Assembly (NCBI GenBank): GCA_043815885.1
Contig: JBDRIL010000031.1
Location: forward strand, 1 to 40,009
DNA length: 40,009 bases
DNA from: an archaeon
GTDB taxonomy: Archaea > Iainarchaeota > Iainarchaeia > Iainarchaeales > 1-14-0-10-31-34
Direction: 5' to 3'
Shown here: positions 24,001 to 27,000 of the stretch, piece after piece
How the letters are laid out: each line of letters starts with the position of its first letter
Numbering within the stretch: the stretch's first letter is position 1
Program-made: the position numbers

Positions 24001-27000
24001 AGGAAAAAGAATGTTTCATTGCTTTTTCTGGGGGAAAAGAAGGGAGTGATTGATTTAAGGGAATTAATGAGGGAATTAGGGAGAAGGGAGATTGCTTCAG
24101 TAATGATTGAGGGGGGAAGTGAATTGAATTCCCATGCATTGAATGCAGGAATAGTGGACAGATTCCTTTTCTTTATTGCTCCAATTGAAATAGGGAAGGG
24201 AATTCCTGTTTTTTCTAAAAAAATAATTAAAAGGAATTCAATCAAATTCAGGATTAATTCAGTTAAGAAAATTGGGGAAGATTTATTGGTTGAAGCCAAT
24301 TGATTCTATTAATTCAGGGGAAATCTACTCTCCCGAAAAATATTAAAAACCGTTCAAGCATTCTTTTAGTGAATAGTGCACTTCAATGGGTGAGTTCAGC
24401 TCAGAACAATAACTCGAAAAGGAGTAGCACTAAAGGAGGAATAAAGAATGAGTGAAGAAAAGGTAAAGGAAAAGATTAAGACTATTTCTGATTTGCCCGG
24501 GATAGGGGATGGTTCTGCAGAAAAATTAATTGGAGCTGGCTATAAGACAGTGGAGAGTATTGCTGTTGCTTCTCCAATGGAATTAATAGAGGCAGCTGGT
24601 TTGGGAGAGATTACTGCTTCAAAGGCAATTCGTGCTGCAAGGGATTCACTTGAAATGGGTTACGAGACAGCAAGCAAGCTGGCTGAAAGAAGGAAGTTGG
24701 TTGGGAAGATTACTAGTGGAAGCAAGGAACTGGATGCACTTATTGATGGCGGCTTTGAAACCCAGAGCATTTCAGAAGTGTACGGGAAATTTGCAAGTGG
24801 GAAAACGCAACTGTGTTTTCAGTTGGCTGTAACAACTCAATTGCCAAAAGAAAAAGGCGGTCTCGGAGGAAACGTATTATGGATTGATTCAGAGAATTCC
24901 TTCAGGCCAGAAAGAGTTATCTCTGTTGCAAAACGCTATAAGCTTGATCCGGAAAAAGTCATGAAAAACGTTTTTGTTGCAAGGGCATTTAATTCTGATC
25001 ATCAAATGATTTTGGCTGAAAAGGCCGGGGATTTGATTAAAGAGAAAAACATTAAGTTGATTATTGTTGACTCACTTACAGCTCAGTTCAGAGCAGAATT
25101 CATTGGAAGAGGCCAGCTTGCGGGAAGACAGCAAAAACTAAACAAGCACATGCACACCTTAATGCGCTTGGGTGAAATGAATAATATTGCTGTCTTTGTA
25201 ACCAATCAGGTAATGAGCCGCCCGGACATACTGTTTGGCGATCCTACAGCCCCTATTGGAGGGGAGATAGTCGCACATAACTCTAAAACCAGACTGTATT
25301 TAAGGAAAGCAAAAGGAGAAAAAAGAGTTGCAAAATTAGTGGATTCCCCTTCACTTCCTGACGGAGAATGCGTTTTCACTGTAACACAGAATGGAATAGA
25401 GGACGCATAAAAGGATAATTGGAAGGAGAAATGAATTATTTCTTTCCGCTTGGGAGATAGGATTTCATTTCTTTTTGCAGTTTTTTTCTTCTGAATGCGA
25501 ATAAATAAATTATCCCGAATACTGCTCCATAACCGTGAATCCAGGGATCGACCTCTACCTCCAGCCTTAATTCCTCTGCTTTCTTGAATTCCTTTATTTC
25601 TTTCTTTACTTCAGTGAATTGCCTGTTTAAGTCAACTGCTTTATTTGTGTCTCCTTTCTCTATTGCCTTGTTTATGTCTTCGGCTATTTTAGTGGATTTT
25701 TGTTCTATTTTTTCTGAGTAAGAAATGAGAGTGGTTTGGGCAGAGGGAATGAATACAAACGACAGCAAGACCACAATAAGTATTGCTGCAATGAATGTCT
25801 TTTTTGGGTCAAGAAGGAAGGCCCCAACAATCAATCCACTCACTCCTGCACTTGCGCCAATAAGTATTGTGTCTGTGTGAATTAAACCATATGAAATCGC
25901 AGTAAGGATTCCTGCAAAGAAAAATAATGCAATGCAGTCCTTCCACTTCAATTTATTTTCAACTATCAAGGCAAAGGCAATCAATGAAACAAGGTTTACT
26001 GTTAAATGAAAGATGCTTGAATGGATTAACATGTAAAATAAAAAATTCCCCAGGGAATAAAAGGAAAATGAAAGGGCGATTATTGTTTCTGATGGAATGA
26101 ACGGCTTTCCTTCAGAGAGATAAATAAAAGAGAGGTAAATAATTAATGCAAGAAATATTGTTGCCTTGAAGTTAATTAATTTTTTTAATGCAGGAAGAAT
26201 TTTTTCCTTCATTTTCTCTCTCCAAAAATTGCTCTTCCAATTCTAACCATACTTGCCCCCTCTTCTACTGCAATAGTGAAATCATCAGTCATCCCCATTG
26301 AAAGAAAATTCATTTCAGTTCCAGGAATGTTTTTTGATTTCAGTTCTTCAAATAATTTTTTTGCTTTCTGGAAGAAGGGCCTTGAATTTTCTGCTTCTTC
26401 AAATAAAGGGGCAATCATCATTAATCCTTTTATTTTTAAGTTGTTTAATTCAGTTATTTTTATGATTAATTCCTCTGCCTCTTCTTTTTTTACCCCGAAT
26501 TTGGATTTCTCTTCTCCAATATTTACCTGAATCAATGTTGGGAGTTTTTTATTTAATTCACTGCAGGCATCATTCAATTTATTTCCTACTTTCAATGAAT
26601 CAATTGATTGAATGAAGTCAAATAATTCTGCGGCTTTAGCTGCTTTATTGGATTGAAGATGCCCAACAAAGTGTTTTTCTACCGGAAGAAGCGAAGTAAA
26701 TTTTTTTCCTGCTTCCTGCACAATGTTTTCCCCTATTGCTTCAACTCCTAGATTTATTGCTTCATTTATTTCTTCCACTGAACGGGTTTTGGTTACAGCA
26801 ATCAACTTTATTTCTTCTGGATTCCTTCCCGTTTTTAATGCAGAAGAATTAATTTCATTCTTTACTTTGAGAAGATTTTCCTCTAGAGACATTTTTTCTT
26901 CAGAAATAGTAGGAAATGTTTCTTTAAATAGTTTTCCAAAAAACAGTTATTTCTTTATGCGCTTTAGCCTGAAGATGTCTTCTCTTTCCATTTCCTCTAA

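What a model noticed while it worked through the whole genome (the two positions that open the first line are those of the whole stretch)
24313..25410. SOS-like DNA-damage regulon: a 25-bp promoter box at radA, herA, recJ, xpd, mcm, ssb that homing endonucleases and TnpB [...]
A 25-bp box (consensus TTCAGGGGMAAT-N3-CTCTCCCGAA) lies just before the TATA box, mostly 57-74 nt ahead of the start codon, at radA, herA (C4), recJ (C60), xpd (C22), mcm (C59), an ssb-like gene (C34), a radical-SAM/HhH repair gene (C14), an inactive PolB-like gene (C54) and toxin-antitoxin genes. It defines a DNA-damage regulon in a DPANN archaeon, probably read by an Orc1/Cdc6 paralog.
Evidence so far: Matrix built from 8 repair-gene promoters scores 19 places at 23.7-39 bits (17 distinct; the mcm site lies on three overlapping contig ends), all intergenic; next hits are at most 19.8 and mostly inside genes; shuffled genome 3 hits over 14. 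In G036 (another family) 12 exact pattern hits, control 0, lie before radA, ssb, herA, mcm, the PolB-like gene, LAGLIDADG and TnpB genes (129, 130). A box-plus-TATA is visible before radA in about 14 of 28 relatives, read by eye (124).
(Added by a program. Inside this text positions count along the whole contig: contig position 1 is position 1 of the stretch shown here. "Call 12" and the like, gene names such as g00115 and contig names such as C1 are that model's own, and its searches are not shown. The text may have been shortened before it was handed on; [...] marks where a part breaks off. The agent that wrote the report below was given it as the finding of a first reader that could run no searches.)

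Follow-up and report, generated by a model that had tools for sequence, protein, structure and literature searches.

The report
Orc1-paralog repair regulon in tiny archaea
A short DNA signal in front of the recombinase gene and about 17 other repair, replication and selfish-nuclease genes is kept across two groups of tiny archaea and is lost wherever a second copy of the replication-initiator protein is lost, which points to that protein as the switch of an SOS-like repair programme whose induction by damage is still untested.

Summary
The box is real: 18 places score 28 bits or more, all intergenic, with near-zero background. It precedes radA, herA, mcm, recJ, xpd, a radical-SAM/HhH gene, a PolB-like gene, toxin-antitoxin genes, TnpB and homing nucleases. 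The conserved unit is an 18-bp core, TTCASCGGMAATCTACTC, set 8-11 nt before TATA. It lies before radA in 74 of 88 Iainarchaeota, not half, and in a second phylum. New here: it co-occurs with a non-initiator Orc1/Cdc6 paralog, 'Orc1-B' (contig C10). Out of sample, 28 of 30 genomes with Orc1-B carry it, against 1 of 35 without, over about five independent losses. No LexA, WYL or second TFB was found. The box is not the Sulfolobus DDRE sequence, and Orc1-2 orthology is unproven. Binding and damage induction are untested. radA also has a covarying 5' leader hairpin. Eight earlier scan notes describe such boxes in other genomes; none of the summaries seen names a regulator.

The parts
24313..24330 (+). 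18-bp core of the regulatory box (predicted Orc1-B binding site) of the radA promoter
   Evidence: 41.0 bits with the own-genome matrix; 20.8 bits with the relatives-only matrix; motif found de novo in 88 relatives without G000
24331..24340 (+). Spacer/BRE zone; the TCCCGAA tail is conserved within G000 but not across the phylum
24341..24349 (+). TATA-like element of the radA promoter
   Evidence: Read from the sequence; 10-11 nt after the core, within the 8-11 nt mode of relatives (58 of 67); no transcription start data
24372..24438 (+). Conserved structured 5' leader of the radA mRNA: outer stem, A-rich asymmetric internal loop, inner stem; ends beside the Shine-Dalgarno sequence
   Evidence: Covariation 0.484 vs 0.206 shuffled, 0 of 500, on a sequence-only alignment of 54 leaders; model match here 23.3 bits (training member); no Rfam match
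24435..24439 (+). Shine-Dalgarno sequence GGAGG of radA
   Evidence: sequence; conserved in relatives
24448..25410 (+). radA (Rad51-family recombinase, 320 aa)
   Evidence: Pfam Rad51 E 1.5e-95
1935..1952 (+). Weak second copy of the box, with TATA-like TTTAAAA at 1964-1970
   Evidence: 19.3 bits, same spacing as the strong sites
1993..2667 (+). Free-standing LAGLIDADG endonuclease gene behind the weak box, between intron-bearing tRNA genes
   Evidence: Pfam LAGLIDADG_3 E 4.9e-6; tRNAs; a homolog in G019 also has a box

Best explanation
The 18-bp core is the binding site of Orc1-B, a second Orc1/Cdc6 AAA+/winged-helix protein distinct from the conserved initiator-type copy (G000 C10:16646-17773). 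Orc1-B binds an asymmetric, ORB-like site 8-11 nt upstream of TATA, next to where TFB sits. It most likely activates transcription of recombination, resection, helicase and damage-tolerance genes (radA, herA/nurA, mcm, recJ, xpd, hel308/hef, nre, PolB-like, radical-SAM/HhH) when DNA is damaged or replication stalls. TnpB elements, homing nucleases and toxin-antitoxin cassettes carry the same box, so they would be expressed when recombination is on. Shown by computation: the box, its fixed geometry, its target set, and its co-loss with Orc1-B. Inferred: direct binding, activation rather than repression, and damage as the signal (by analogy to Sulfolobus Orc1-2). radA has a second, RNA-level control element of unknown ligand.
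For: Motif found de novo without G000 (log-likelihood 513 vs 66 shuffled). It is in 74 of 88 radA promoters, against 6 on the opposite strand and 2 reversed, at a fixed 8-11 nt spacing in 58 of 67. Held-out tests: PolB-like promoters 23 of 28, orc1-A promoters 0 of 29; three other genomes gave 11, 19 and 16 raw pattern matches (some duplicates) and 0 control matches, with targets including nurA, nre, a Hef-like helicase, an OB-fold ssb, mcm and recJ. Co-loss, second phylum, out of sample: 28 of 30 with Orc1-B vs 1 of 35 without, with two losses on the RadA tree. Co-loss, Iainarchaeota: all 7 genomes of family f2 hold only the initiator-type copy and lack the box at radA (6 of 6) and mcm (7 of 7); G197 and G213 likewise. 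The gene next to orc1-B is kept in f2. Orc1-B keeps Walker A/B, an ISM 'PRRG' in 26-27 of 29, an invariant recognition-helix Arg and a wing G-[RK]-[TS]-R; its model matches DNA-bound Orc1 at TM 0.87. A reversed box lies just upstream of orc1-B in 7 of 30 loci plus G046, beside different partner genes. PolB2 lies beside arORC2 in euryarchaea and beside lexA in bacteria (PMC4104785 passages).
Against: No binding or expression data. The box does not resemble the Sulfolobus DDR consensus more than chance (124 of 300 permutations; p 0.52); likeness to the mORB probe is only p 0.02 among five motifs tried. Box present but Orc1-B not found in G069, G167 and G154, and weakly in G199 (68-84% complete; G154 has no congener to check). 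Orc1-B present but score under 8 in G028, G054, G179 and G191, and under 10 in G278 and G279. The module is lost as a whole (the PolB-like gene is also absent in 0 of 7 f2 genomes), so another co-lost regulator is not excluded; no full transcription-factor census was made. No forward box at orc1-B (0 of 30, 0 of 27), unlike the self-induction of Sulfolobus Orc1-2. In f2, radA may be transcribed from further upstream than the 320-500 nt read. Only about five independent losses, two of them single incomplete genomes. Targets include mcm, so a replication or cell-cycle signal fits too.
Confidence: 0.7

Rival explanations
1. Same regulon and same reader (Orc1-B), but the signal is replication state or the host-attachment/cell cycle rather than DNA damage, or Orc1-B represses until released.
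For: mcm, ssb-type and helicase genes are targets; Orc1 proteins are replication factors; no forward autoregulatory box; the Thr phospho-switch position of Sulfolobus Orc1-2 appears to be an invariant Arg here.
Against: Nre, radical-SAM/HhH, PolB-like, XPD and NurA/HerA are repair or tolerance genes; the site lies upstream of BRE/TATA rather than over them, the usual activator position (established knowledge); selfish nucleases would gain from damage-timed expression (inference).
Confidence: 0.13
2. The box is read by another, unidentified DNA-binding protein that is lost together with Orc1-B and the PolB-like gene.
For: Co-loss cannot single out one gene of a module; the G000 25-mer is weakly palindromic (TTC...GAA), as for a dimeric HTH regulator; three to four genomes have a box and no detected Orc1-B.
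Against: The palindromic tail is not conserved; LexA S24, WYL and a second TFB were not found in G000; the truncated third Orc1 lacks the winged helix, and an Orc1-B profile finds no third copy in most boxed genomes of the second phylum; orc1-B's neighbour shows the opposite pattern; the reversed box recurs at orc1-B itself.
Confidence: 0.13
3. The boxes are replication-origin or mobile-element end sequences, or a general strong-promoter element, not a regulon operator.
For: Left half resembles a mORB (p 0.02); homology between the two TnpB copies starts at the box.
Against: Sites are single, oriented and at fixed distance from TATA; none upstream of the initiator gene (0 of 29); only about 18 sites among some 1300 crude gene calls, none at ribosomal or metabolic genes; single-copy core genes carry it across two phyla.
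Confidence: 0.04

Closest known systems
Orc1-2 / DDRE DNA-damage regulon of Sulfolobales (PMC6061795: passages and Discussion part 1; PMC9738581 and PMC12490963: passages)
   Same: Non-initiator Orc1/Cdc6 paralog as predicted regulator; site upstream of BRE/TATA; PolB2-type polymerase and herA/nurA among responding genes; ISM 'PRRGL..DE' and wing shared with P. aerophilum Cdc6.
   Different: The site core is GGMAA, not ANTTTC; radA, mcm, recJ, xpd and selfish nucleases are direct targets; a single TFB, so no TFB3 tier found; no forward autoregulatory box; initiator-type Arg where crenarchaeal Orc1-2 appears to have its phospho-Thr.
Halobacterium UV box TTTCACTTTCA (PMC2556686: passages)
   Same: Motif upstream of TATA at radA and other UV-induced genes, with a near match at a transposase gene; regulator unknown there.
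   Different: Unrelated sequence (p 0.42); four genes against about 18 here; induction shown there, not here.
Bacterial LexA SOS regulon (recalled; lexA link to PolB2 operons in PMC4104785: passages)
   Same: Recombinase, helicases, error-tolerant polymerase, toxin-antitoxin and mobile elements under one box.
   Different: No LexA peptidase S24 found; asymmetric site upstream of the promoter, so probably activation, not cleavage-driven derepression.
SNJ2 provirus Orc1 (Orf8) damage switch (PMC10123103: passages)
   Same: An Orc1/Cdc6 homolog links DNA damage to a mobile element's activation.
   Different: There the element encodes its own Orc1; here the elements carry only the host's box.
Origin recognition boxes bound by initiator Orc1-1 (PMC3089459: passages)
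   Same: Marginal sequence likeness of the box's left half; Orc1-B keeps the initiator-type helix Arg.
   Different: Single promoter-linked sites, not clustered origin repeats; absent upstream of the initiator gene.

Membership tests
Sulfolobales Orc1-2/DDRE regulon | Full-length Orc1/Cdc6 paralog, separate from the initiator, with intact ATPase, ISM and winged helix | tested here: met
   A/B split with 100% SH-like support
Sulfolobales Orc1-2/DDRE regulon | Regulator belongs to the Cdc6/Orc1-2 clade | tested here: inconclusive
   Shares ISM and wing signature with 1FNN. The B profile scores 1FNN 175 and 1W5S 135 bits vs 131 and 115 for the A profile, but both score Orc1-1 chains highest, and B also scores eukaryotic chains higher. 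No tree with crenarchaeal sequences could be built.
Sulfolobales Orc1-2/DDRE regulon | Site contains DDRE 5'-ANTTTC-3' / the published 20-bp consensus | tested here: not met
   124 of 300 permutations as high; p 0.52
Sulfolobales Orc1-2/DDRE regulon | Site upstream of BRE/TATA at repair genes including PolB2-type and HerA/NurA | tested here: met
Sulfolobales Orc1-2/DDRE regulon | Positive autoregulation through a site in the regulator's own promoter | tested here: inconclusive
   Forward box 0 of 30 and 0 of 27; reversed box 7 of 30 Iainarchaeota loci plus G046, 0 of 27 in the second phylum
Sulfolobales Orc1-2/DDRE regulon | Phosphorylatable Thr (T356) in the recognition helix | tested here: not met
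   Invariant Arg (R328) at the column that aligns with P. aerophilum Ser; equating that column with T356 is my inference
Sulfolobales Orc1-2/DDRE regulon | Damage-induced, regulator-dependent transcription and direct binding | not testable with these tools
   needs culture, EMSA or RNA data
Sulfolobales Orc1-2/DDRE regulon | Second tier TFB3 with ups/ced genes | tested here: not met
   One TFB gene found in G000 (92% complete); ups/ced not searched
LexA SOS regulon | LexA-type repressor with peptidase S24 | tested here: not met
   0 matches in G000
WYL-activator damage regulons (PafBC, DriD) | WYL-domain regulator | tested here: not met
   0 matches in G000
Replication origin (ORB array) | Clustered boxes beside the initiator gene | tested here: not met
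   0 of 29 orc1-A upstream regions of 300 nt; G000's own orc1-A upstream lies beyond a contig end

The most novel reading that the evidence does not exclude
An Orc1/Cdc6 paralog is the ancestral archaeal counterpart of LexA: in Iainarchaeota and Micrarchaeota it directly activates radA, mcm and the resection and tolerance genes from an ORB-derived box. TnpB and homing-nuclease elements have captured that box to time DNA cutting to the recombination-competent state, and radA output is further gated by an uncatalogued leader RNA, possibly sensing RadA itself.
Probability: 0.4. Interest if true: 0.85.

Novelty: new variant of a known kind. Interest (0 to 1): 0.72.

Why it matters
Whether archaea outside Sulfolobales have a global DNA-damage regulator is open; Sun et al. 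2018 (PMC6061795, Discussion) ask exactly whether non-Sulfolobales Orc1-2-cluster proteins regulate damage responses. This finding names a protein and an 18-bp site that can be tested in vitro without culturing the organism. It extends an Orc1-based response to two DPANN phyla with a different site and a target set closer to bacterial SOS. It also suggests that TnpB and homing nucleases plug into the host repair programme. Five searches of the held library listed no paper on such a box or on a radA leader RNA in these phyla; most subscription papers are not in that library.

Tried and rejected
Palindrome/dimeric-repressor reading: the right arm is not conserved. Box = Sulfolobus DDRE: an attractive gapless alignment by eye was not significant. 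Box related to the element upstream of the initiator orc1 gene: not significant (185 of 300). LexA, WYL, alternative TFB: not found. Truncated third Orc1 (C30, 269 aa): no winged helix. 101-aa neighbour of orc1-B: found in 2 of 2 f2 genomes and 0 of 3 boxed genomes of the second phylum. De novo motif search on 320 nt before radA in the second phylum returned a coding motif of the upstream gene; the box appeared once 1500 nt were read. Homolog search with the Orc1-B alignment: the named hits among the 120 listed were Diapherotrites, Micrarchaeota or unspecified archaea, so it did not place the clade. RNAalifold on the sequence-only leader alignment gave no structure. Expression: no RNA holder listed. 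Viral contigs: 2 pattern matches, uninformative; no relatives of the 76-aa gene. A strict pattern found matches in only 2 of 5 second-phylum genomes. nre, hef, hel308 and OB-fold ssb homologs, boxed in relatives, have no box within 350 nt in G000; nurA was not found in G000 with the query used. Protein-complex prediction was not used, as it cannot take DNA.

Full report
OBSERVATION. The 25-mer is at window 24313-24337 (+), between ribD (ends 24303) and radA (24448-25410; Pfam Rad51 E 1.5e-95); 100 shuffles gave none. In the whole genome (G000, 1.16 Mb, 92% complete) 16 places have 0-3 mismatches and none has 4; three Markov genomes gave none at 4 or fewer. An iterated matrix gives 18 places at 28.2-41.0 bits, all intergenic (16 distinct), then a weak intergenic site at window 1935. 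Downstream genes are herA, mcm, recJ/DHH, xpd, radical-SAM/HhH (followed by a RelE-like pair), MazE/MazF, a PIN gene, two TnpB and a LAGLIDADG gene. Others are an HNH-like nuclease, a 507-aa PolB-like protein (Atlas lead 0.89 only; none in Pfam or PDB) and a 76-aa beta4-alpha protein upstream of a DEAD-box helicase whose ssb label I could not confirm. Two sites have no clear target (C32:1473, C24:61). A TATA-like word follows 9-15 nt after the 18-bp core at all 18 sites listed, 11 nt in 11 of them.

ORGANISM AND RANGE. A box-plus-TATA pattern over the GTDB collection gave 30 loci. Fourteen are titled Iainarchaeum/Diapherotrites, 5 'archaeon' and 1 Micrarchaeia; 10 carry bacterial titles, of which four come from two assemblies with archaeal-type radA and the rest look like chance. 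I read 90 radA upstream regions of 192 found among 215 phylum genomes. De novo EM on 88 of them, G000 and one short region excluded, converged on ttCAcCGGaAAtctACtC (log-likelihood 513 vs 66 shuffled). It scores 10 bits or more in 74 of 88, against 6 on the opposite strand and 2 reversed, and sits 8-11 nt before TATA in 58 of the 67 with a TATA call. So the conserved unit is 18 bp and asymmetric; the palindromic-looking TCCCGAA tail is local. Lineages have dialects: GGCCAG/GGACAG in f8, GGCAC/GGCAT in f14.

HELD-OUT TESTS. A box-plus-TATA model built only from relatives' radA promoters gives 11 hits in G000, 10 of them intergenic regulon sites, and 1 in the reversed genome. It scores 10 or more at 23 of 28 PolB-like promoters (30 loci, 2 truncated, G000 included) and 0 of 29 initiator-gene promoters. 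Hits in other genomes precede nurA (4 loci), nre, mcm, recJ, xpd, Hef-like and Hel308-like helicases, an OB-fold ssb, DNA methylases, DUF488, PIN genes, TnpB and LAGLIDADG genes.

G000 has three Orc1/Cdc6 genes: a conserved initiator-type copy (A, C34), a full-length paralog (B, C10) and a copy without winged helix (C30). A and B separate with 100% SH-like support, and all 15 single-copy genomes placed in the tree hold A. Family f2 (7 of 7 genomes, 76-86% complete) has only A and no box at radA (6 of 6) or mcm (7 of 7); G197 and G213 behave alike. Over 94 Iainarchaeota radA promoters, at a post-hoc 8-bit cut and with a matrix trained largely on them, 78 of 82 with B have the box. Of 12 without detected B, 9 lack it and 3 have it (G069 and G167, whose congeners have B, and G154). 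The cleaner test is the phylum of G215, whose contig is titled Micrarchaeia. Of 71 sampled genomes I scored 66 radA loci and dropped G283 (contig edge): 28 of 30 with B score 10 or more (the other two 8.2 and 7.2, at the expected place), against 1 of 35 without B, and that one lacks the GG core. A quick RadA tree needs two changes: one clade of 34 genomes and the G281/G283 pair; G281 keeps the operon and a TATA but no box, unlike its sisters. That makes about five independent co-losses, two of them single incomplete genomes. B keeps Walker A/B, a PRRG initiator-specific motif, an invariant helix Arg and the wing, and its model overlays DNA-bound Orc1 (TM 0.87). A reversed box lies 35-117 nt upstream of orc1-B in 7 of 30 loci and in G046, beside differing partners (PolB-like, a 62-64-aa gene, toxin-antitoxin-like genes); none is forward, and none is in G000. 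Against: the PolB-like gene is also missing in f2 (0 of 7), so the module is lost whole and another co-lost regulator remains possible. LexA S24, WYL and a second TFB were not found.

MECHANISM. Shown by computation: site, geometry, targets, co-loss. Inferred: Orc1-B binds the core as Orc1 monomers bind ORBs and, sitting upstream of BRE/TATA, recruits TFB/TBP; damage is the trigger, by analogy with Sulfolobus Orc1-2 (PMC6061795, passages and Discussion part 1; PMC9738581 passages). My odds: regulon operator 0.93, Orc1-B as reader 0.8, damage-inducible activation given these about 0.85; jointly about 0.65-0.7.

SELFISH ELEMENTS. The two TnpB copies are 89.8% identical over 1319 nt starting at the box, with a short shared hairpin-like stretch upstream, so the element carries the box with it. 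Boxed TnpB and LAGLIDADG genes recur in relatives. A Halobacterium transposase with a near-match to the radA UV box is a precedent (PMC2556686 passages); damage-triggered IS transposition in Deinococcus was seen only as a listing (PMC2806898).

SECOND LAYER AT radA. Of 68 leaders printed, 55 with a Shine-Dalgarno sequence at 45-95 nt were folded, and most give a two-stem hairpin with an A-rich internal loop ending beside that sequence. On a sequence-only alignment of 54, RNAalifold found nothing, but a 12-pair structure chosen from the top covarying columns gave 65% paired vs 46% shuffled and covariation 0.484 vs 0.206 (0 of 500), exceeding all slid controls. The structure was derived from these sequences, so this overstates. 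The model hit 50 of 99 loci, nearly all training members, and none of the 8 second-phylum loci given. No Rfam match. Function unknown; translational feedback by RadA is my guess.

COMPARISON. It works like the Sulfolobales Orc1-2 regulon, but membership is not established. The DDRE sequence test failed. Orc1-2 orthology is inconclusive (clade definitions from PMC3914693 passages). The T356 switch (PMC12490963 passages) appears absent. Likeness to the mORB probe (PMC3089459 passages) is p 0.02 of five motifs tried. PMC4104785 (passages) reports PolB2 beside arORC2 in euryarchaea and beside lexA in bacteria, which matches the orc1-B/PolB-like divergon in family f9. PMC10123103 (passages) shows a viral Orc1 as damage sensor. 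No supplements were read.

NOVELTY. Five literature searches listed nothing on this box. Eight earlier scan notes describe similar boxes in other genomes; two call the regulator unidentified, none of the summaries seen names one, and a search for the co-loss argument returned none. Those notes are leads, not support. Verdict: real, a new variant of a known kind, interest 0.72.

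Noticed in passing
window 24372-24438: Conserved, covarying hairpin leader of radA mRNA across Iainarchaeota; not in Rfam; not detected in short-leader families or in the 8 second-phylum loci tested.
   Followed up: partly
L209-L230, about 50-150 nt upstream of the initiator orc1 gene: A conserved 24-bp element, consensus GAGTTGTGGAAnnnAACCACTTCC, on the reverse strand in 19 of 29 relatives and absent in family f1; possibly the initiator's autoregulatory ORB.
   Followed up: partly
window 683-825, 1659-1788, 2684-2801: Three intron-bearing tRNA genes (Gly GCC, Gly TCC, Lys TTT by ARAGORN with introns on; missed) flank the boxed LAGLIDADG gene.
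   Followed up: no
L018:3064-3873 (G000 C30): Third Orc1/Cdc6 copy, 269 aa, ends after the lid with no winged helix; long branch; role unknown.
   Followed up: partly
L173-L199, upstream of orc1-B: In 10 of 30 loci, mostly family f11, orc1-B is divergent from one conserved ~275-aa gene that I read by eye as endonuclease IV (not scanned), with no box between them.
   Followed up: no
L049, L191, L198, L154: A 56-64-aa helical protein with no Pfam or PHROG family is boxed in four genomes and divergent from orc1-B in three; not found in G000.
   Followed up: no
G233:C1:839438-840358: A broken Orc1 homolog with three stops in a genome of the clade that lacks Orc1-B; may be its decaying remnant.
   Followed up: no
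L003:1473-1700 (G000 C32): Two boxes in tandem: one before a 30-codon ORF, the next before a 390-aa HNH-like nuclease, as if the nuclease cassette inserted with its own box.
   Followed up: no
L144, L145, L147, L160: Records titled Chloroflexi and Falkowbacteria carry archaeal radA (74-76% identical) and the box; probably mislabelled Iainarchaeota assemblies.
   Followed up: partly
L246-L272, L234: In many second-phylum genomes radA is preceded by a conserved small gene, and the box sits about 330-450 nt upstream, in front of that gene.
   Followed up: no
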